Of a stretch of 64,000 nucleotides of DNA, positions 3,265 to 55,753 are shown one piece after another. The notes under the pieces are model-generated. The model ran no database searches. It worked only from the letters and a program-made list of their open reading frames with translations, and had not been told where the DNA came from. The position numbers and the translations under genes are program-made. Every line of letters starts with the position of its first letter. Position 1 is the stretch's first letter. Origin of the DNA: Porphyridium purpureum (Eukaryota); NCBI GenBank assembly GCA_008690995.1, contig VRMN01000002.1:1798001-1862000 (forward strand). Direction: 5' to 3'.

Positions 3265-3987
3265 TCATGCCGCGCTCGCGTGGGTGGTGTACTTCGAATT
3301 GTTGAGCACGGCTCGCAGGGACTGCTCGATCTGCCCACCACAGTAAGGCAATGAGCCCTGGCGGTGAGCGAGCGCCACGAGGTTTGGGTTCGTACCGAGT
3401 CGATCGCACAGGGACATGACTCTTGGCATATGTTGCCGCAGTATTGGAGACAGCTGCGGGAGAGCTGCCTGCATGGTGGCAAAGACTGCGTACAGAGTGC
3501 TATCCGCATAGGTGGGGCCCTCCTTGTTCCCGAGGTAGTAGCAGGGCTCAGTTCGGCCGGCGGCCTTTTGCCGAGCAGTGTACTCAAAGATGGCCAGCCA
3601 GCGCAAGAAGCGATCGGAGACGAATGCATCGAACGCATCCTGGGTCCACATCGCCGCGCCACAATCGCAGGTCAGTTCACGAATGAGATCGTTGCCGTTA
3701 TTCACGACCATATCCGCTGTAGCAATGTCGTGATTGTCCGTTGGCATCATGCCGCACTTGCGTGCCAAGTAAGACACGATCGCGGGTGTCTGTGCGATGA
3801 AAAAGCCGTCATCCTCCAAGAGTGGCGGCGCCATAAACAGCGCTTGAGACGCCTGGCTCGGAGGCTGTGCCTTGAGCGCGTACAACTCGGCGCTGGGCAC
3901 CTGCTCATACTGCTCATTTGCCAACTCTAGGAGACACCGAACAAACTGCCCGCGAAAGAGGATGTCGTGGTAGTACAGCTTGTACAT
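3265..3987 (-). CDS. Glutathione S-transferase, bacterial-type family
   Basis: MYKLYY...FRGQFVR start, APPLL...QTPAIVSYLA (GST N domain), PTYAD N-capping motif, C-terminal YCGGQIE. Confidence 0.85.
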   Translation of the reverse strand: MYKLYYHDILFRGQFVRCLLELANEQYEQVPSAELYALKAQPPSQASQALFMAPPLLEDDGFFIAQTPAIVSYLARKCGMMPTDNHDIATADMVVNNGNDLIRELTCDCGAAMWTQDAFDAFVSDRFLRWLAIFEYTARQKAAGRTEPCYYLGNKEGPTYADSTLYAVFATMQAALPQLSPILRQHMPRVMSLCDRLGTNPNLVALAHRQGSLPYCGGQIEQSLRAVLNNSKYTTHASAA

Positions 3988-5943: not shown

Positions 5944-7068
5944 CTATACACGCCGTAGCACCCGAATGGAGGACGTGTCCTCTACTTCGGCCACAGCGTC
6001 ATCTACAAGCATCCACTTCCGATGAACTTCCGAGCGAGATAACCAATCTTCAAGCTCCTCCTCAACGGTCAAAAGAAAAGCGTCGTACACTGTAAGCTTT
6101 CTTGACGTGCTCATGAACTCTCCAATATTTCGTTCGACAGTTGCACGCACGCCAGCCACCTCCAAGAGTCCGCGGATCGCGGCGTCTTGCGCTGTCTCGC
6201 CAGACTCGAGCTCGACTTTCACCAGAGTCGGTACGCCTTTTGAGTCCTCGTTTAGAATTGTCAGAACAAACAATTCCTGACCAACACGGCGCACTGGGAC
6301 ACACAATGCCTCCTTCTTCATATCCCGCGGGCGCGCGACGTCGTTATTGAGATCGCGATATTGGCGAGGTTGGTATGCTTGAATCGCGACCGCGGCCGGA
6401 ATGGACGGTGTCCGGTGCTTGCCAAAGTCAACCTGATCATCCTCATCGTCCGAGGCACCGGCGAGCAATTCAGCAGGCACTACAACGCTGGACTGGAGTT
6501 CTTTGCGTGCGCGCTGCACGACCAGGCCAATTTTTGTGTGAAACTTTTGGTAGTTGAGCACGTTTGCTGTGTAAAGAGACTGCGTCTCTGCATCCAGTAC
6601 CTTGTCGTGTTTCTTGAGCGACTTGATCGCCGTGGTGTAATTGACGGAGCAAAACTCTTGGAACATGTCCAGATGGTCCTCCATCCGCTCGTACGTCAGC
6701 TTGACAAACGCGCCGCGAGCCTTTTGCTCCTTGAGCTTCTCGAAGAACTCTGCGGATTTTTGCTCGAAGAACGTATTTATCTTGAGCAGTTCCTCGTTGA
6801 GAATCTCGAGAAACTCGAGACTCTCCACAGTCATCTGCGAGACGAGGCTAAGCTTCCACTCCCACCCGGCATGACACGCCAGTCCCTTCATATCAAAGCG
6901 GTTATACTTGAGCTCCGTATCATCGTCAGGCAAGCCCGCGTCGACGCGCGCGCCTTTCTTCCTGTCGACTTCGCTGATCACATACTTTAACCGCTTGTAA
7001 TTGATGTAATACTGAGTCCATGCCGGCGCTTCGTTGGCAACCGCATTCAAATACTTGCCCCACTTCAT
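5944..7068 (-). CDS. SPX domain-Nudix (DIPP-like, degenerate) fusion protein
   Basis: SPX motifs MKWGKYL, YYINYKRLK, ELLKINTFF, NYTTAIKSLKKHDK. C-terminal ESGETAQDAAIRGLLEVAGV...FLLTVEEELEDW...HRKW matches the DIPP Nudix pattern. Confidence 0.9.
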   Translation of the reverse strand: MKWGKYLNAVANEAPAWTQYYINYKRLKYVISEVDRKKGARVDAGLPDDDTELKYNRFDMKGLACHAGWEWKLSLVSQMTVESLEFLEILNEELLKINTFFEQKSAEFFEKLKEQKARGAFVKLTYERMEDHLDMFQEFCSVNYTTAIKSLKKHDKVLDAETQSLYTANVLNYQKFHTKIGLVVQRARKELQSSVVVPAELLAGASDDEDDQVDFGKHRTPSIPAAVAIQAYQPRQYRDLNNDVARPRDMKKEALCVPVRRVGQELFVLTILNEDSKGVPTLVKVELESGETAQDAAIRGLLEVAGVRATVERNIGEFMSTSRKLTVYDAFLLTVEEELEDWLSRSEVHRKWMLVDDAVAEVEDTSSIRVLRRV

Positions 7069-8311
7069 TTTCCACGGAGCCCCTTCCCTCTGTCACCCCC
7101 TCCTTTCGTCACGCTCGCACAGGGACGCACGAGCACGAAACACCTGCTCTGCTCCGGTCGAGCCTGCTCCCCTGCTCCCCCTCACTTTTCAATAAGCATT
7201 CACGTCCACACACAAACTATCACCACGCACATCCCAATGTCTTCTTCACGCCTCGATGTCCCAACAGACTCTCAGCACGCTCGCGCGATGACGACAAACC
7301 TGGTGATGATCATGGGAGAGCGCCAAGAGGTTCGAAACCGTGAGACAAGGAACTGAATCTTCGCAATGTAAGCTCGAATGGCATGCCATGTGGTGGCAAG
7401 GGCAGCGGCAGTGCCAATGCCGGTGGCACGGCGTGCCGCTCGCGCGACGTTTTCAGTGGCGCGACACGCCGCCGCCTGGCCGCCCAGGCAGAGAATGAGC
7501 TGTATTGGCGAATAGGATCGGCGATGCGCAGTGGCGGATGATACAGCCGCAGGAGAATGTGAGAACTGGCACACGACGCGGGCACGAGGAACTGCAAGTG
7601 CTGTAATGTGGGAATAGAACCGCGTTTGGGGATGCACGCGCAGACACGGCGCGAGTTGCCGGGTTGCATCTTCGTGTATGCTGACCCATCGAGCGATGTA
7701 TATTGACGTAGTGATCTCGACAGCCCAACCCGAAGAACTCTTCCCGGCTTCTCAAGCCAAAAACCCAAAAAAAAAAATAAAATGAGGAAGAGGTTCAGCA
7801 ACCACTAGATGAACAAAAGCCCAGTTGCCACCCCGCCGTTGTACGGCAGTGACTTTTCCTTCACATAGCCGCGACATGATCACGGAGGCAGACAGAAGCA
7901 GGCCGCGCGCCTGAACGGAAGCGCAAGTCCCGTCGCCCTGGATGTCTGCTCGTCATCCTAATTCCCCAATACCACACTTGCCACACCGCAGCAGCGCGTT
8001 CGCGCACGCAAAGCATTCCGTTCAATGCACTGTACCGTATCTCACCGAGCGCTGTACACCGATCTTCTAAAACCCGCCCGAAAAAGGGGGAATCTTTCCA
8101 GATTCGGCGCTATGAGAAATGGCGCTGATTTGCTATATTGTCCTCCGTCGTTCGATGCACGCTGTACACTACTGGCGGGTGCATGTGTACAGTTGGTAGC
8201 ATGGATCAGTATTGAACCGTTAAGACGAACCACCGGAATTTGGAAGGGAAAAGTTGAAGGCCAGGGGGAGGACGGGGATAACGGAGAGAGAGAGTGTGTG
8301 TGTCGGGGGAC

Positions 8312-8314
<3 letters not shown>

Positions 8315-8348
<34 letters not shown>
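8315..8348. repeat. (AG)17 microsatellite just upstream of the PPK1 start
   Basis: Read directly from the sequence. Confidence 0.95.
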
Positions 8349-8354
<6 letters not shown>

Positions 8355-8362
8355 GGGGGAGT

Positions 8363-11362
8363 ATGGGGCCGAATATTCCCGGCGGTGAGGAGGACGAGGG
8401 GATGGGTTTGGGGTCTGTGCGGATCGCGGACTCGCAGTCGGTTTGGAATCTGAGGATGGAGGGGCAGGTGCGCGGGCTGCCGCCCCGCGAGGCGCAGCTG
8501 CATAAGTACAAGGTGTGTCCGCTGGACGCCACCACGCATTACGCGCCGGAAGTCGAGTACGAGCATATGAGTAATATGGAGCTGGCGAAGAGTAAGCTCA
8601 TCTTCACCCAGGAGTTTGGCGAGCTGAGCTTCAACCAGCGCGTGCTGGCCGCCGCGCTCGATCAGGACACGCCGCTGCTCGAGCGGTTCAAGTTCTGCTG
8701 CATCGTGTCTTCCAATCTCGATGAGCACTTTGCCAAGCGATTGGGGAATATTCCAAAGGTGCAGGCCGACGAGGACGACGCGCCGGACACGTCCAAAATG
8801 AAGGCGTCCATTCGGCCGCGGACCGAGTTTGAGGAAAAGTTTAGCGAGGCGGTGACAAGCATTGTGAACATTCAGTACAAGTGCCTCATGCGTGATATTC
8901 TCCCCAAGTTGCAGGAACACGGCGTAAAAATTCTGCGGTACCGCGACTTGGACGACACGCAAAAGGCCGACATGGACGAATACTTTCGCAAGAAACTGTA
9001 CCCTATGATCACGCCCTTATCCGTGGACCAGACGCACCCTTTCCCAATGATCCAGTCGCACGGGATTTACCTCGTGATTGTCGTGCTGAATCCAGAAACG
9101 TCGCGCACGCGCAGGCTCTACTTCCGCATTCCGAATGTGAAACCGCGCGTGCTGCCAGTCGGATCTGATCGGCTGTGCTACCTGCCCATCGAGGAAATCT
9201 GCATCGCCAATGTGGACAAGATCTGCGAAGGCATGGAGCTGCTCAAGGCGTATCCGTTCCGCGTGACGCGTAACGTGAAGCTCGTTATTGACGACACCTT
9301 GTTTGGAGAGTCTGACAATCTGCTGGACTTTGTATGGGAAGAGGTCCACCGACGACGTTCGGCTCCGGCGACGCGCTTGGAAATCACTAAGCAGATGCCT
9401 GCCGACATTCGCAGCCTGCTTGTGCGCGAGCTCTACCTGGATGATACGGACGTGTACACAATCCCAAACAATTTGCTGGGCCTGGCCGACTTTTTCCCGG
9501 TTTCCTTTTCGCCTGTTGCGGAATTGCAGTACCCGCCGCACGTGCCCATGGTGCCGAAGCGTTTGGTCGGGCTCGAGGAGCGTCTGCATGAAGATCCGGG
9601 CAAGATTTTCTCCGTAATCCGCAAAGAAGACCTTCTGGTGGACTATCCGACCATGTCTTTTAACGAGTCGTCGTTGCTCTTTCTGCGCGCTGCCGCGCGC
9701 TGCCCCAAGGTGCGCATGATCAAGTGTGTTCTGTACCGTGGTGGCTCGGACTCACCGCTGGTGGCCAGTCTCATCCGCGCCGCGAAGAACGGAAAGGAGG
9801 TCAGCGTTCTGGTAGAGCTCAAGGCTTCCTTTGACGAGGTGCAGAATTCGACTTATGCCAAGCAGCTCATGGACGCCGGCTGCAATGTATCGTACGGTCT
9901 GGTGGGGCTCAAGACGCATTCAAAAATCATGCTCATCGTGCGCCAGGAGGAGAATGGCTTTCGGCAGTACTGCCAGATCGCCACGGGTAACTTCAATCCG
10001 TCCACGGCGAAAATTTATACCGACTTGGCACTGTTCACGTGTCGCGAGGACATTTGCGCGGATGTGCTTGACCTCTTCAACGCTTTGACGGGATTCAGCC
10101 GCAAGCGGCAGTATCGCCGCCTCCTGGTCGCGCCGGTGAACATGCTCGACTCTTTCATTGAATTGATCGATAACGAAGCCGAGAATGCCCGCAAGGGGCT
10201 ACCCGCGCGGATCATTCTGCAGATCAATGGGCTCACTGAAACTGAGTGCGTGTCACACCTTTATGCAGCCTCGCAGGCTGGCGTGCAGATCGATTTGATC
10301 TGCCGTGGGCTGTGCGCGATTCGACCGGGCCTACCGGGCAAATCGGACAACATTCGGGTCTTTTCGTGGATCGGGCGCTTCCTGCAGCACCGGCGAATCT
10401 TTTACTTTTTAAATGGCGGTCGCGAGAAGTATTTCATCGGGTCGGCTGATTGGCGCAACCGCAACCTTACGGCGCGCGTGGAAGTTATCACGCCCATCGA
10501 TGACGCCAAGATTCAGCGGAAGCTCATGAAGATGATGACGTTCTTTTTGGAGGATGAGTTGAACACGTGGGAAATGGCCAGTGATGGCAAGTATTACCTA
10601 CGCAAGCCCGAGACGATCGACCGCGAATCCGAGGCTTCTTTGATCGGCAAGGCGGGCACCTTGACGGCGCAGGTTCTGATGATCGACAAGGACGAGCAAA
10701 TCGCCAAGTCAGAGGATGTTGCGAACCCGGTTCGAAACACGGGCTGGACCAAGGAATGGACGGTGCAAATCAAGGGTGTGGACATATTTGTTTCGGATAT
10801 CGCTTACGGATGCGTGCCGATTCGCTTTGTAGATGAGCACAAGGTTGACCCAGAGCTTTTGCTTGTTTCGAGCAGCAAGGGAAGCGAGGACTGGTCCTTC
10901 ATGTCAGCGGATGGGAAGGAAAGCGAGACACCCGTAGACGTTTCAAAGCGATGCGCAGCGCAGCGCGGCGGCGTCAAGGGAGGAATCATCGGCAACCTGG
11001 GCTGGTTTCTCAGGGGCAAGGACAGCAAGAAGGCGGTGCAACTGTTTGTGATGGATGCCGAGTCAGAACTCGATATCGAGTGGCCAGAGCAATACGTTCG
11101 TGACCGAAAATGGATCCACCTCAGTGACGCGCAAGTCATGGACGAGCTCTCGTCTGACCCGCTGGTCGAGAGCGTGCTTTCAGCGCTTGACGATTGGGTG
11201 AAGTCGCATGCGAATGCGACGAGTCAGAACGGCGCGGTACCCGTCCCACTAATGGAAGAAGCTGCCCCACCAGTGGAAGAACCCATCGCACCAATGGAAG
11301 AACCCATCGCACCAACGGAAGAACCCATCGCACCAATGGAAGAACCCGTCGCGGAGGAGTAA
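8363..11362 (+). CDS. ppk1: Polyphosphate kinase 1 fused to a C-terminal DIPP-like Nudix domain
   Basis: PPK1 motifs ELSFNQRVL, SSNLDE, HPFP, FRVTRN, GLKTHSK (phospho-His), TGNFNPSTAKIYTD, GRFLQHRRI, GSADWRNRNL. Nudix-like tail YGCVPIR...LLLVSS...WPEQYVRDRKW. First ATG at 8363; the true start could be 8402 or 8456. Confidence 0.95.
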   Translation: MGPNIPGGEEDEGMGLGSVRIADSQSVWNLRMEGQVRGLPPREAQLHKYKVCPLDATTHYAPEVEYEHMSNMELAKSKLIFTQEFGELSFNQRVLAAALDQDTPLLERFKFCCIVSSNLDEHFAKRLGNIPKVQADEDDAPDTSKMKASIRPRTEFEEKFSEAVTSIVNIQYKCLMRDILPKLQEHGVKILRYRDLDDTQKADMDEYFRKKLYPMITPLSVDQTHPFPMIQSHGIYLVIVVLNPETSRTRRLYFRIPNVKPRVLPVGSDRLCYLPIEEICIANVDKICEGMELLKAYPFRVTRNVKLVIDDTLFGESDNLLDFVWEEVHRRRSAPATRLEITKQMPADIRSLLVRELYLDDTDVYTIPNNLLGLADFFPVSFSPVAELQYPPHVPMVPKRLVGLEERLHEDPGKIFSVIRKEDLLVDYPTMSFNESSLLFLRAAARCPKVRMIKCVLYRGGSDSPLVASLIRAAKNGKEVSVLVELKASFDEVQNSTYAKQLMDAGCNVSYGLVGLKTHSKIMLIVRQEENGFRQYCQIATGNFNPSTAKIYTDLALFTCREDICADVLDLFNALTGFSRKRQYRRLLVAPVNMLDSFIELIDNEAENARKGLPARIILQINGLTETECVSHLYAASQAGVQIDLICRGLCAIRPGLPGKSDNIRVFSWIGRFLQHRRIFYFLNGGREKYFIGSADWRNRNLTARVEVITPIDDAKIQRKLMKMMTFFLEDELNTWEMASDGKYYLRKPETIDRESEASLIGKAGTLTAQVLMIDKDEQIAKSEDVANPVRNTGWTKEWTVQIKGVDIFVSDIAYGCVPIRFVDEHKVDPELLLVSSSKGSEDWSFMSADGKESETPVDVSKRCAAQRGGVKGGIIGNLGWFLRGKDSKKAVQLFVMDAESELDIEWPEQYVRDRKWIHLSDAQVMDELSSDPLVESVLSALDDWVKSHANATSQNGAVPVPLMEEAAPPVEEPIAPMEEPIAPTEEPIAPMEEPVAEE
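11252..11359 (+). repeat. 21-bp coding tandem repeat (about 5 units of xEEPIAP) at the PPK1 C-terminus
   Basis: MEEAAPP-VEEPIAP-MEEPIAP-TEEPIAP-MEEPVAEE; DNA core gaagaacccatcgcacca recurs every 21 bp. Confidence 0.9.
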
Positions 11363-11430: not shown

Positions 11431-12972
11431 TCAGAAAATTCGATGCCAGATGTCGTTAGCCATAATGGATACCGCAACAGCAATCATAAAGGCCAGCGTG
11501 AATTCCCCGCCCGGCACAAGCTCGGGCATCGTTCCTGGGTTACCGACCAAGCTAAGCGAGGCTTCTTCTGCCTCTTCTCGTTTGCGCTGGCGGCGCAGCT
11601 TGCCAACCATGGTCGCAGGTATGATACCAAACAAGACGGTCATTCCAAATGTTCCGGTAAGGTCAATGGCAGAGAAGAACAGATTGGGCGATGTGATTGC
11701 AAAGCCCATCGCGGGAAGCAGTACGGAAAACTGAACCGGCCGAGAAGACAACGCGCTGCGTATCGTTTCGTTTGCGACATTGTTTGATATGTCCTCCAAA
11801 AACTCCGCGATCCCGAATACAAAGCCGATAAAAGAGGTCACTATCGCGATCTCACTAAAAACGGACACCGCTATCCCAACCTGGTCGCCGCTTTTTCGTA
11901 GCAGGGCGAGAGGGTCCAATGTCTCGCCGGAGACCAGGAACTGACTCAAGAAATCTGGAGAGACTGTGCCCAAAATGACTGCATTCCAGACAATAAACAT
12001 GCTCAGGGGCAAAAGCGTACCAAGCACGATCGCGTATCGGACCTTGACCACGTCTCCTTTTAGCTGCGCGCAGATGACCGGTACAATTTGGTGATATACC
12101 AGTGCCACAAGAATCGTGGGCAGTGCTGGGATAACCGCGGCCCAGTTTGTCCCGGCCAAGTAATCCGGATGCACGCCCGGAGACACCAGCGAAACGAGCG
12201 CGATGAACGTCGCCACCAAAACTCCGACGAGGATATTGTTTGTGCTCTCGACTAAGTCTTGATTTGCCACGTATAGGAAACCACCAACGCCAAGCGTGAA
12301 TGCACTTGCGCCTTGCCAGTACGGCGCATGCACGCCCTCTGCCAAGATGCCTCCAGCCTGAGCAATGTACGCGATAAGCAACGCTAACATGATGAACAGG
12401 TAAAACGCGGAGGATATTTTACCACCAATGGAACCCAGAAACAGATCTGTCATGGATAACATGGACACAGATGGCCTCTCGTACTTGCGCATGGTATACA
12501 GGGAAGCCTCCGCGACGAGCAACGCAGCACATGTCATATACATCCAACCTCCAATTAGAGCCGCCGTACTGGGTACAAACCCGGCTCTCCAAGTCACGCT
12601 TGGAAGCGCCAAAACTCCAGCGCCTATCATCGTGCCAGCCACTAGCGAAATCGCCGCAACCAGAGAGGGCTCTGCTTCGGCCTCATCCACCGCAGGTTCA
12701 TCACCTTCAGCGAGGGGCTCACCGTTTTCCGCTGAAACCTTTTCCAGTATCCGCTCCTCCTTCTTATCTTCAATACGCCCACTATTCTTGGGAGCTGCCT
12801 GCCGGACCAGCAGCGACGAGGAGCGTTGTCTCGTACGACGCACTGGGAGCGTGGAAGCCGATTCCACTCCGCGTGGTCGACCACGATACCAACATGTGGC
12901 TCGGTTTGTCAGCCGCCAGGACAGACCGTCAATCAGGCACGTCGGGGCTGTATCCACAATCTGAAACGCCAT
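11431..12972 (-). CDS. tyrP: Tyrosine/tryptophan permease family transporter (TyrP-like), likely plastid-targeted
   Basis: ISLVAGTMIGAGVLALP, AGFVPS, YHQIVPVIC, AIVTSFIG; many TM segments; MAF start (ATG 12972). Confidence 0.88.
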   Translation of the reverse strand: MAFQIVDTAPTCLIDGLSWRLTNRATCWYRGRPRGVESASTLPVRRTRQRSSSLLVRQAAPKNSGRIEDKKEERILEKVSAENGEPLAEGDEPAVDEAEAEPSLVAAISLVAGTMIGAGVLALPSVTWRAGFVPSTAALIGGWMYMTCAALLVAEASLYTMRKYERPSVSMLSMTDLFLGSIGGKISSAFYLFIMLALLIAYIAQAGGILAEGVHAPYWQGASAFTLGVGGFLYVANQDLVESTNNILVGVLVATFIALVSLVSPGVHPDYLAGTNWAAVIPALPTILVALVYHQIVPVICAQLKGDVVKVRYAIVLGTLLPLSMFIVWNAVILGTVSPDFLSQFLVSGETLDPLALLRKSGDQVGIAVSVFSEIAIVTSFIGFVFGIAEFLEDISNNVANETIRSALSSRPVQFSVLLPAMGFAITSPNLFFSAIDLTGTFGMTVLFGIIPATMVGKLRRQRKREEAEEASLSLVGNPGTMPELVPGGEFTLAFMIAVAVSIMANDIWHRIF

Positions 12973-13152: not shown

Positions 13153-14238
13153 TCAGAGCTGATGGCGTGCGTCATCCACTTGGAGAATCAGCCTACCACC
13201 GTGGCGCTCCAAGGCGCTCTCTGCCTGCGTTGGTGACCGGTGGATGACGGCGTGTGGCCACTGCCCAGAGTCATTCTTCCAGCGAACGCCTTTCAGGAAC
13301 AGAGCTTCGCGTGGAGCAGCGGCAGCAAAAGCCACGGCTGCATTGGCTTGACTGCTGCTCTGAGCCTCTATAGTGGGTTCCGCACATTGGATGCGCTTTA
13401 CGGATCCAGTTGGGCTTGACGAATGGAATAGCTCCGACAAAAGGGCGTCATAGGCATCGGCTGCAGGGGAGGGTTGATTTCGATACGACAGAAATGCGTC
13501 GCGGTTCACAAATTGCTCGTTCGCCACTACCGTGCCAGCACCAACGAGTGTTGCAATGGTTCGCAAACGCACATTGTCAACATGGAAACGCGGGCACTGG
13601 ACACGATCAATGCGCGCTAGACGCACCACATATCCTTTTCTCGTGGGCTGTGGCAAAACTCCCAACCTTTGCGATGTTTCTCCCGACGCGGCGTGCAGGT
13701 CTAGCAGTCGTTGCGCCGCGAGTGCGCTGAGGTGGACTATGTTGTCATCCACTGAGCCCGTTGCATCTGCTAGCTTGTGCTTCAAAAAGTGTAGCGAATT
13801 TTCCCCTGCAGGCACATCAAAACACACGTCAAATTCCGGTCCCGGCTTGGCCATGAATGATTCCCACGCGCGCCCAGCCGCTTCCAAGCAAGGATCACGT
13901 GTCAAGCGCACCGCATTGTATCGCTCATCCAGCAAAGAGGTTTTCGCCTGGACGAGGTCGGAGCATACAGCACAGCCAGCGCTTTCAACTGTCGCGGACG
14001 CATCCGAACGCAACGTCGCGCTGATGCGTGTCGCTTCGTGTTTGGCGCTCTGCAGAATCCCGCGGTGCGTTTCTCGACGTACAGTCTGATCCGCCCGCAC
14101 TACTTTTCGTCTCGCCAATGTCCTCTGAGCGCCAGCGGACACCGAGTCGTTGCGCGACGTGCTCGCGACGCCCGCAACGCAGAACGCACCAACATTCACG
14201 GACGTGCCGAATTGCAAGCAAAAGCCCATTTCCGTCAT
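13153..14238 (-). CDS. DUF1826 family protein, probable organellar transit peptide
   Basis: CPRFHVDNVRLRTIATLVGAGT, LFLKG, VIHRSP, RLILQVD; start uncertain (14238 or 14229). Confidence 0.8.
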   Translation of the reverse strand: MTEMGFCLQFGTSVNVGAFCVAGVASTSRNDSVSAGAQRTLARRKVVRADQTVRRETHRGILQSAKHEATRISATLRSDASATVESAGCAVCSDLVQAKTSLLDERYNAVRLTRDPCLEAAGRAWESFMAKPGPEFDVCFDVPAGENSLHFLKHKLADATGSVDDNIVHLSALAAQRLLDLHAASGETSQRLGVLPQPTRKGYVVRLARIDRVQCPRFHVDNVRLRTIATLVGAGTVVANEQFVNRDAFLSYRNQPSPAADAYDALLSELFHSSSPTGSVKRIQCAEPTIEAQSSSQANAAVAFAAAAPREALFLKGVRWKNDSGQWPHAVIHRSPTQAESALERHGGRLILQVDDARHQL

Positions 14239-54167: not shown

Positions 54168-55753
54168 ATGGACGACGAATGTTTCAGGCTCATGGGTACG
54201 CTGATAGAGCCGCGGTACGTACAGCAGGCATGCGATGCGCGGCGATCGCATACGCAGAAGTTTCGGACGCTGCTCGCCAACCGACAGCTGCCAGAAACGG
54301 GATGGGATGCGCTCACGCTACGTCTGTTCCTGACAGACGTGGCTGCCATGGATAGCAACCTTTTTGTAGGGAATGTCGGCATGGGCGAGCGTGAAGGGCG
54401 CGTGTTTAGTGACTTGGTGAGGGAACGACATTACGGGTTTGCGCACGGAATCGGCAGGTCTGGCGATATCGGCGCCGTCCAGCCCAAAGCCGCCGGCAGC
54501 TCTCTGGTCTCTGTTCTGGCAAAAATCCTCGCTTTGGTAAGCATACATCTTCTTTGCTCTAAGAGTCTTATGGCGACGCCTCATTTGGCGCGCTCTGTAA
54601 CCGAGGCTTTAATACTCATCCAGTCGCTGACGTGGGTTTCTTCCATGCTCTCACTGCCCATTGACTGCTTTCTTGTTTTCTTCAGCATGCGCTCAGACTG
54701 GCTGGATTTCGTAGCGCCCGCTTTGGTGCGGTCATTCCGCTGGCCACAGGACTTTCTCTTACGTTGGTCTTGTCGGCGCTGCGCGGCGAACGTCCCGGGG
54801 CGACCAAGGTGATTTTCTGTCGTATCGACCAGAAGAGTTGTGTCAAGTCCATTTTGACCGCCGGGTTTGAGCCTCTTGTGATTGATGGTGTGCTCCAGGG
54901 CGACCAGGTTTGTACAAATATGGAAGAAGTATCAAACACAGTGTTGCGGGAAGGGGCCCACACCGTTCTGTGCGTGCTTAGTTGTTCGAGCTGCTTTGCG
55001 CCGCGCGCACCCGACGATGTGGTGGCCATCGCACGTTTTTGTCGCAAAAATAATGTGCCTCATGTGATTAACAATGCGTACGGGGTCCAGTCTCGACGCA
55101 TGATGCATGAGATTGACGTCGCGAGCACTACCGGTCGCGTTGACATAACAGTGCAAAGCACAGACAAGAACTTCATGGTTCCCGTGGGTGGGGCCATTTT
55201 GGCTTCTGCCCATCGCGAGTTGGTCCAACGCGTGCTCGAGACGTATCCAGGCCGAGCGTCTGGATCGCCAAGCCTGGACCTGCTCATGACGCTGCTACAA
55301 CTGGGACAGAACGGGTGGAGGTCATTGCTGGATGAGCGCGAACGCACTTTTGCGCAGCTGCACGCAAGACTCGTGCACTTTGCAGAACGCGTGGGCGAGC
55401 GCGTTCTCGAGTCTCCGCGAAACGACATATCCATTGCCCTCTCGCTCAGCACGTTCGAGACACGGCACGCCGACGTGTGCGAGCTGGGTTCCCAACTATT
55501 CCGCAGGCTCGTTTCTGGTGCTCGTGTGGTGCCACGCACGGAAAAGCAGGCAGCGATCTCGGGCGTGCGCTTTGATGGCGGGTTTGGTGCTCACCACCCG
55601 GCATATCCATCTTCTTTTCTCACAGTGGCTTCTGCCGTTGGCCACACTGACGCCGACATGGACTCCTTCTTCAACAAAATCGAGAAAGTCTTTGCGACGT
55701 CCGGGAGTAAGGATTCGGTGGCAGAGAATACAGGGCGACTTGACATCGAATGA
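54168..55753 (+). CDS. SEPSECS: O-phosphoseryl-tRNA(Sec) selenium transferase (2 exons)
   Basis: Exon 1 54168-54536 (MDSN, GEREGR, HGIGRSGD, QPKAAGSS); intron 54537-54685 (GTAAGC...TTCAG); exon 2 54686-55753 (PLATG, RIDQKSC, HVINNAYG, QSTDKNFMVPVGG with the PLP Lys, YPGRAS). Confidence 0.95.

What the first reader, a model, noticed from the sequence alone, without database searches (positions are those of the whole stretch)
5944..11362. Head-to-head SPX-Nudix and PPK1-Nudix pair: candidate phosphate-sensing polyphosphate system
Seen: two divergently transcribed genes whose starts (7068 and 8363) are about 1.3 kb apart. One is SPX plus a DIPP-type Nudix domain; the other is bacterial-type PPK1 plus a DIPP-type Nudix domain. 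Known: SPX domains sense inositol pyrophosphates and switch on polyP synthesis in the VTC complex, and DIPP/Ddp1 Nudix enzymes act on PP-InsPs and polyP. As I recall, a PPK1-Nudix fusion is the polyP synthase of Cyanidioschyzon and red algae lack VTC4. Inference: the SPX-Nudix protein is a dedicated regulator that links PP-InsP status to PPK1, possibly through Nudix-Nudix contact and shared-promoter co-expression. That would be a convergent rebuild of VTC logic on a bacterial enzyme. I know no description of this partner or this gene arrangement.
Basis: partly seen in the sequence, partly recalled or inferred. Interest (0 to 1): 0.92.

Follow-up and report, generated by a model that had tools for sequence, protein, structure and literature searches.

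The report
Red-algal SPX–pseudo-Nudix sensor beside PPK1
A red alga carries, head-to-head with its polyphosphate kinase gene, a gene from a red-algal family joining an SPX domain to a Nudix domain that lacks its catalytic residues; it likely senses inositol pyrophosphates and may switch polyphosphate storage on or off, a link that is untested.

Summary
Both ORFs are real: SPX+Nudix (374 aa, 7068..5944, -) and PPK1+Nudix (999 aa, 8363..11362, +). The PPK1-Nudix fusion is published (Cyanidioschyzon). I found no description of SPX-Nudix in the library searched. It is a conserved red-algal family: 9 representatives at 50% identity, named in Porphyridium, Compsopogon, Rhodella, Rhodochaete and Pyropia. 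Its InsP-binding residues are intact. No SPX-Nudix member has the last catalytic Glu (0 of 10). PPK1's Nudix box is intact in only 7 of 41 eukaryote-type proteins, all named ones Cyanidiophyceae; here it is eroded and acidic. SPX-Nudix is therefore likely a non-catalytic sensor/adaptor. The link to PPK1 rests on adjacency in one genome. In Pyropia vietnamensis the genes lie on different contigs and its PPK1 lacks the Nudix domain, which argues against obligatory linkage or Nudix-Nudix contact. Divergent orientation and the 1.3-kb gap are ordinary here, and the Nudix tree is unresolved on sisterhood. Verdict: new SPX architecture and pseudo-enzyme pattern; direct PPK1 control about 0.4.

The parts
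5944..7068 (-). SPX-pseudo-Nudix gene, 374 aa (P0001), no sign of an intron
6493..7068 (-). SPX domain (about aa 1-192) with PBC Y24/K28/K153 and KSC K149/K152/K156
6340..6357 (-). Linker motif RDLNND (aa 238-243); R238, N241, N242, D243 invariant in 13 of 13 aligned family rows; lies in a low-confidence segment of both models
5947..6321 (-). DIPP-like pseudo-Nudix domain (aa 250-374); Nudix box at 6216..6148 with G51>V, E66>G, E70>V (human DIPP1 numbering)
7069..8362 (.). Divergent intergenic region. RNA-like contigs reach up to about 7950-7970; 7971-8277 is uncovered in them (candidate shared promoter, weak hint); GA repeat 8314-8353; no Rfam family
8363..11362 (+). PPK1-Nudix fusion gene, 999 aa (P0012)
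8591..10609 (+). PPK1 core (N, H, C1, C2 domains); H519, H676, E707 invariant in 43 of 43 aligned rows
10769..11212 (+). Eroded, acidic (net -10) DIPP-like Nudix domain; box at 10907..10975 lacks G51, E66, E69 and E70
11239..11352 (+). 21-bp tandem repeat (5.4 copies) encoding an acidic, proline-rich C-terminal tail

Best explanation
The left gene encodes an SPX domain joined to a Nudix domain that lacks its catalytic residues, so it is likely a non-enzymatic inositol-pyrophosphate sensor that would act in trans on the neighbouring polyphosphate kinase. Shown from sequence: intact SPX ligand residues, a degenerate Nudix box across the family, a conserved linker motif, intact PPK1 catalytic residues, and an acidic eroded Nudix domain on this PPK1. 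Inferred: when phosphate is plentiful, InsP7/InsP8 loads the SPX basic surface. The RDLNND linker and the conserved pseudo-Nudix surface dock the protein on PPK1, more likely on the kinase core than on its Nudix domain. The ligand-bound state then releases or stimulates polyP synthesis, as SPX does in VTC; the sign of the effect is not known. Shared upstream DNA would keep the two genes in one phosphate response.
For: SPX PBC/KSC as defined in PMC9911596 (passages): the four-lysine pattern in 9 of 10 full-length family members (Rhodochaete has three) and Y/K in 8 of 10. Nudix box (PMC13573052): G51 0 of 10, E70 0 of 10, E66 2 of 10, while structural E57/R65 are 10 of 10. The domain is still more conserved (0.57) than the SPX C-half (0.48), with surface patches at 0.69-0.73, so it is under selection for something other than catalysis. 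The usual targets of soluble SPX proteins are reported missing in red algae: VTC4 and coiled-coil PHR factors (bioRxiv 2022.04.15.488190, passages). The two genes that carry a DIPP-like domain are direct neighbours; my rough chance estimate is about 1e-3, from no call and not corrected for scanning many windows. Complementary pattern: the PPK1 group of this window, Rhodosorus and Pyropia has an acidic eroded (4 of 41) or absent (1 of 41) Nudix domain, and SPX-Nudix is named in Porphyridium and Pyropia. Groups whose PPK1 Nudix is intact (7) or dead but neutral-to-basic (29) have no named SPX-Nudix. This is one or two evolutionary events, so it is weak.
Against: In Pyropia vietnamensis SPX-Nudix (MMPV_008032, contig 741,799 bp) and PPK1 (MMPV_005304, contig 1,285,458 bp) are unlinked: linkage in 0 of 1 other genomes testable. 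PPK1-Nudix is present in lineages where no SPX-Nudix was found, so PPK1 does not need it everywhere. Divergent orientation and spacing are ordinary. The SPX domain scores best against stand-alone rice SPX2/SPX1 (70, 65 bits), which regulate transcription factors, versus 32 bits for Vtc4. No PP-InsP synthesis genes could be checked (no genome held).
Confidence: 0.4

Rival explanations
1. SPX-pseudo-Nudix is a PP-InsP sensor/adaptor with another target (a MYB-SHAQKYF factor, a phosphate transporter, or an active DIPP or VIP1 enzyme). It sits beside PPK1 because both belong to one phosphate-responsive programme driven from shared upstream DNA, without the proteins touching.
For: Closest solved SPX relatives are stand-alone SPX1/2. 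The family is kept in Pyropia with its Nudix surface although PPK1 there has no Nudix domain and is unlinked. Conserved divergent pairs in fungi and animals tend to share function (PMC2871058, abstract). Red algae have MYB-SHLQKY/F factors without the coiled coil, so a new adaptor surface could replace it.
Against: Does not explain why both neighbours carry the same DIPP-like domain, nor the erosion of PPK1's Nudix domain in the same lineage. No P1BS-type element lies in the intergenic region; the two nearby matches are inside the PPK1 ORF.
Confidence: 0.35
2. The adjacency is a relic of an old local duplication of the Nudix domain, or chance, and SPX-Nudix has no functional tie to PPK1.
For: Unlinked in Pyropia. 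A clade of SPX-Nudix plus non-cyanidial PPK1 Nudix domains is not rejected (p-AU 0.336). All other Pfam-assigned genes in the window are unrelated to phosphate.
Against: A recent duplication is rejected: the window's two Nudix domains as a clade give p-AU 1.6e-6, and they are only 26% identical. The family spans four classes (class names recalled), so unselected linkage would have had to survive a very long time.
Confidence: 0.2
3. One or both Nudix domains are active DIPP-type hydrolases, making SPX-Nudix a ligand-gated PP-InsP or polyP phosphatase.
For: Fold is DIPP-like. The Ddp1 K63-equivalent is K or R in 9 of 10 members and E66 is kept in 2 of 10.
Against: E70 0 of 10 and G51 0 of 10. 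The TS/SR phosphate-anchoring motif seen in the DIPP and bacterial rows is lost, and 9 of 10 domains are net acidic. The review names these two Glu as critical Mg ligands.
Confidence: 0.05

Closest known systems
CmPPK1, the PPK1-Nudix fusion of Cyanidioschyzon merolae (Yagisawa et al., Plant Mol Biol 115:9, PMID 39699696; seen only as a title in reference lists and through a review's passage; paper not held)
   Same: Same architecture; PPK1 catalytic residues conserved; orthologous by similarity and tree.
   Different: The Nudix box is intact in Cyanidiophyceae but eroded and acidic here, and an SPX-Nudix gene lies next to it. The unseen paper may already remark on degenerate Nudix domains in other red algae.
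VTC complex (SPX-Vtc4)
   Same: SPX sensor plus polyP polymerase; same PBC/KSC residues.
   Different: Different polymerase fold (PPK1, not TTM), no membrane channel, and the SPX is on a separate soluble protein that is closer to plant SPX1/2 than to Vtc4 by profile score.
Stand-alone plant SPX1/SPX2 (regulators of PHR)
   Same: Best-scoring solved SPX relatives; soluble; share the Q-x-F motif after the lysine cluster.
   Different: Carries a C-terminal pseudo-Nudix domain and an invariant linker motif; the PHR coiled-coil target is reported absent from five red-algal genomes. Nudix is not among the SPX partner domains listed in a survey that included three red algae (PMC8717665, section 5 and supplement rows).
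DIPP/Ddp1 Nudix hydrolases
   Same: Fold and sequence family.
   Different: Catalytic glutamates, first box glycine and phosphate-anchoring motif are lost.
Non-catalytic Nudix domains such as vertebrate TRPM2 NUDT9-H, TIRR and KRIT1 (recalled, no call)
   Same: Nudix fold kept as a ligand- or protein-binding module.
   Different: Other Nudix subfamilies, no SPX, no known tie to polyP.

Membership tests
SPX-domain InsP sensors | SPX helical bundle at the N-terminus | tested here: met
   Pfam SPX in 13 of 13 family rows; model helices; PDB SPX hits
SPX-domain InsP sensors | PBC (Tyr, Lys, Lys) and KSC (three Lys) | tested here: met
   Y24, K28, K149, K152, K153, K156 in P0001 (definition)
SPX-domain InsP sensors | Binds InsP6/PP-InsP | not testable with these tools
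   needs a binding assay
DIPP/Ddp1 hydrolases (SPX-Nudix domain) | Nudix fold with DIPP as nearest family | tested here: met
DIPP/Ddp1 hydrolases (SPX-Nudix domain) | Intact Gx5Ex7REUxEExGU box with Mg-binding Glu | tested here: not met
   G51 V, E66 G, E70 V; E70 0 of 10 in the family
DIPP/Ddp1 hydrolases (PPK1 Nudix domain) | Intact Nudix box and basic substrate cleft | tested here: not met
   no E66/E69/E70, net charge -10
PPK1 | N, H, C1, C2 domains | tested here: met
   PDB 2o8r, 1xdo E<1e-90
PPK1 | Catalytic His (E. coli H435), H592, E623; labels recalled | tested here: met
   H519, H676, E707 invariant in 43 of 43. The H454 position is Q here and not His in any of the 43 rows; P. gingivalis PPK also lacks it
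PPK1 | PolyP synthesis from ATP | not testable with these tools
   needs an assay
Red-algal PPK1-Nudix fusions | PPK1 core fused to a C-terminal DIPP-like domain | tested here: met
   40 of 41 eukaryote-type representatives carry it
VTC complex | TTM polymerase and transmembrane channel | tested here: not met
   neither protein has a VTC or TM-channel Pfam domain
Conserved divergent gene pair | Linkage kept in relatives | tested here: not met
   unlinked in the single other genome testable, Pyropia vietnamensis; a second PPK1 copy there is not excluded

The most novel reading that the evidence does not exclude
Red algae rebuilt VTC-type control on a bacterial enzyme in steps. PPK1's fused DIPP domain is an active hydrolase in Cyanidiophyceae, a dead but basic anion-binding module in florideophytes, and an acidic or lost remnant in the lineages that hand sensing to a separate SPX-pseudo-Nudix subunit. 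That subunit would be the first SPX regulator of a PPK1 and the first trans-acting PP-InsP switch on a soluble polyP polymerase.
Probability: 0.3. Interest if true: 0.85.

Novelty: new variant of a known kind. Interest (0 to 1): 0.62.

Why it matters
How eukaryotes without VTC4 tie polyP synthesis to phosphate status is open. The pair names a candidate regulator and two testable surfaces (SPX lysines, RDLNND linker) in an alga genus that can be transformed (recalled). Even if the PPK1 link fails, SPX-pseudo-Nudix is an SPX architecture absent from the lists I saw. The loss of the catalytic box in 33 of 40 PPK1 Nudix domains also warns against extending the Cyanidioschyzon result to seaweeds.

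Tried and rejected
Complex prediction: SPX-Nudix with PPK1 aa 780-955, folded without my alignments, scored ipSAE 0.00 twice; no verdict, not used either way, and the PPK1 core was not included. No whole genome is held, so paralogues, VIP1/ITPK and VTC4 could not be checked. Metagenome scan (stopped at 22 of 64 parts): 65 loci, all plain SPX; 0 of 65 with the family's Nudix domain. Region search for PPK1's Nudix domain found only the query. Bacterial origin of the fusion as an operon: 1 of 66 bacterial ppk1 loci had a Nudix hit within 5 kb and 0 of 80 DIPP-like loci had ppk1; not supported. Sister-paralogue tests were inconclusive: p-AU 0.336, 0.142, 0.123, 0.246, with only one eukaryotic DIPP (Physarum) as outgroup and no site-mixture model. 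P1BS scan: 13 matches in 64 kb, none intergenic. Rfam: nothing at gathering score, one E 0.85 chance match. Atlas: nearest clusters are plain DIPP (0.78) and plain SPX (0.93); no SPX-Nudix cluster shown. Contig depths cannot give expression levels or strand, and uncovered stretches prove nothing alone. Neither AlphaFold model placed the linker (pLDDT<50 over about aa 200-248; pTM 0.52, 0.53). The PPK1 tree is the quick version, 35 chosen rows.
Full report
Observation. The window is gene-dense eukaryotic DNA of about 55% GC. Both ORFs exist as stated: 7068..5944 (-), 374 aa, and 8363..11362 (+), 999 aa. Both lie on a 2,407,698-bp contig record. The nearest named relative of the left protein is Porphyridium aerugineum (45-49%), so the source is probably a Porphyridium-like red alga (inference). 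Pfam gives SPX plus a sub-threshold NUDIX for the left protein and four PPK1 domains for the right. PDB searches place both Nudix domains nearest human DIPPs.

Transcription. Two runs on record as RNA (one study) give contigs over most of both ORFs without joints. Five runs whose RNA status is guessed or unknown, from four studies, stop at 7898-7970, while a DNA-like run goes on to 8277. This is a weak hint of a long leader or upstream transcript on the SPX side and a 300-400-bp untranscribed core. The 883 bp upstream of the SPX start hold 9 ATGs on the minus strand. Strand and level cannot be read from contigs.

The SPX-Nudix family. The word-based search gave 6 proteins of 5,074 candidates, the query included. 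A profile search over 1.84 billion representatives gave 1,984 hits, of which I saw the best 150. Nine have both domains (one is a fragment); scores then fall from 158 to 92 and 89 bits into plain SPX and plain Nudix proteins. Named members are P. aerugineum, Compsopogon caeruleus, Rhodella violacea, Rhodochaete pulchella and Pyropia vietnamensis; the others are unnamed records. No named florideophyte or cyanidiophyte member appeared; the 1,834 unseen weaker hits could hide very divergent ones. A survey of SPX proteins in Cyanidioschyzon, Galdieria and Chondrus lists no Nudix partner (PMC8717665, section 5 and supplement rows). The SPX ligand residues are intact: Y24, K28, K149, K152, K153, K156 (definition from PMC9911596 passages). 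The four-lysine pattern holds in 9 of 10 full-length members and Y/K in 8 of 10. A linker motif (R238, N241, N242, D243) is invariant in 13 of 13 rows yet sits in a low-confidence stretch of both models, as a binding motif might (inference).

Both Nudix domains look dead. The box is Gx5Ex7REUxEExGU, and two Glu bind the catalytic Mg (PMC13573052, passages and section 29). DIPP1 numbering is counted from the alignment. In 10 full-length SPX-Nudix proteins G51 is kept in 0, E70 in 0, E66 in 2, and E57 and R65 in 10; 9 of 10 domains are net acidic. The domain nevertheless stays well conserved. For PPK1, the search listed the best 120 of 982 hits, 41 of them at least 900 aa. Seven have an intact box, and all named ones are Cyanidiophyceae. 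Twenty-nine lack both catalytic Glu but keep the glycine motif and are neutral to basic; the named ones are Gracilaria and Agarophyton. Four are eroded and acidic (-8 to -10: this window, P0013, the Rhodosorus cluster, P0015). One cluster, Pyropia/Porphyra, has no Nudix domain. In one search Rhodosorus keeps E66 and E70 but has lost G51, E57 and R65. The PPK1 core itself is intact. In a quick tree of 35 chosen rows the four acidic forms group at 99 and join Pyropia/Porphyra at 89.

Is the pair a system? For: two DIPP-domain genes of one nutrient pathway are neighbours. My rough chance estimate is 1e-3, using a recalled gene number and no correction for the many windows scanned. The usual targets of a soluble SPX are reported missing in red algae: VTC4 (PMC12526157, passages and section 5) and coiled-coil PHR (bioRxiv 2022.04.15.488190, passages). 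SPX-Nudix is named in the PPK1 group whose Nudix domain is acidic or lost; no PPK1 was identified for Compsopogon, Rhodella or Rhodochaete, so the pattern rests on few taxa. Against: the only other genome with locus tags for both, Pyropia vietnamensis, has them 2,728 tags apart on contigs of different length, and its PPK1 lacks the Nudix domain while its SPX-Nudix is complete. A second PPK1 there is not excluded. Divergent pairs are 9 of 28 neighbour pairs in this window and 1,294 bp lies inside their range. No other phosphate gene was found among the 37 ORFs scanned. In a 43-row Nudix tree SPX-Nudix domains form one clade (100/97) and non-cyanidial PPK1 domains another (97/93), with an open backbone. 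A recent local duplication is rejected (p-AU 1.6e-6); ancient sisterhood is not (0.336).

Mechanism. Shown: anatomy, conserved SPX site, degenerate Nudix boxes, intact kinase. Inferred, about 0.85: SPX-Nudix binds InsP/PP-InsP and works in phosphate homeostasis; about 0.9: it is not a hydrolase. Inferred, about 0.4: its target is PPK1, more likely through the kinase core given Pyropia. Rivals: another target with shared transcription (0.35), relic or chance adjacency (0.2), active hydrolase (0.05).

Comparison with what is known. The PPK1-Nudix fusion is published (Yagisawa et al., PMID 39699696); I saw only its title in reference lists and a review's passage, and the paper and its supplements may bear on the degeneracy claim. 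PMC3680246 (passages) covers eukaryotic PPK1 without mentioning Nudix or SPX. Searches for SPX+Nudix+Porphyridium (0 papers), 'SPX-Nudix' (0) and SPX domain+Nudix+red algae (2 papers; the passages read show no such protein) found no description. The library lacks most subscription journals, and bioRxiv supplements were closed. It would work like VTC if the link holds, but it is not a VTC member, and neither Nudix domain passes the DIPP hydrolase test.

Verdict. Observation confirmed; interpretation partly supported. New variant of a known kind: a new SPX architecture with a pseudo-enzyme domain, next to a known enzyme. Interest 0.62; 0.85 if direct control of PPK1 is shown.

Noticed in passing
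P0016, P0133-P0145 (Pyropia/Porphyra PPK1 cluster): Bangiales PPK1 ends in a short acidic tail and has no Nudix domain, an exception to the fusion being general in red algae.
   Followed up: partly
P0017-P0045, P0081 (florideophyte-type PPK1): 29 PPK1 Nudix domains share a fixed substitution of both catalytic Glu (by Ile/Val and Lys) while keeping the glycine motif: a candidate non-catalytic polyP or InsP binding module in seaweeds.
   Followed up: partly
window 7069-7970: RNA-like contigs extend about 900 bp upstream of the SPX-Nudix start, with lower-depth separate contigs in two runs and 9 upstream ATGs on the minus strand; possible uORF-rich leader or separate RNA. Small indels in other strains (7326, 7767, 7778) argue against the 119-aa ORF being conserved.
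   Followed up: partly
window 54168-55753 (+): SepSecS is split over two ORFs in different frames (intron, frameshift or assembly error); suggests selenocysteine machinery in this alga.
   Followed up: no
window 13153-14238 (-): DUF1826 protein, a mostly bacterial family (recalled), possibly plastid-targeted or horizontally acquired.
   Followed up: no
window 3265-3987 (-) and 11431-12972 (-): A glutathione S-transferase (GST_C_8) and a Trp/Tyr permease flank the pair; no link to phosphate seen.
   Followed up: no
window 10781, run X15: One contig has a 255-base loose end at this point of the PPK1 gene, near the core/Nudix boundary; chimera or strain variant.
   Followed up: no
L191, frame +0 near 9283: A Nudix gene lies about 2.3 kb downstream of ppk1 in an Opitutales MAG, the only such case in 66 bacterial ppk1 loci.
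   Followed up: no
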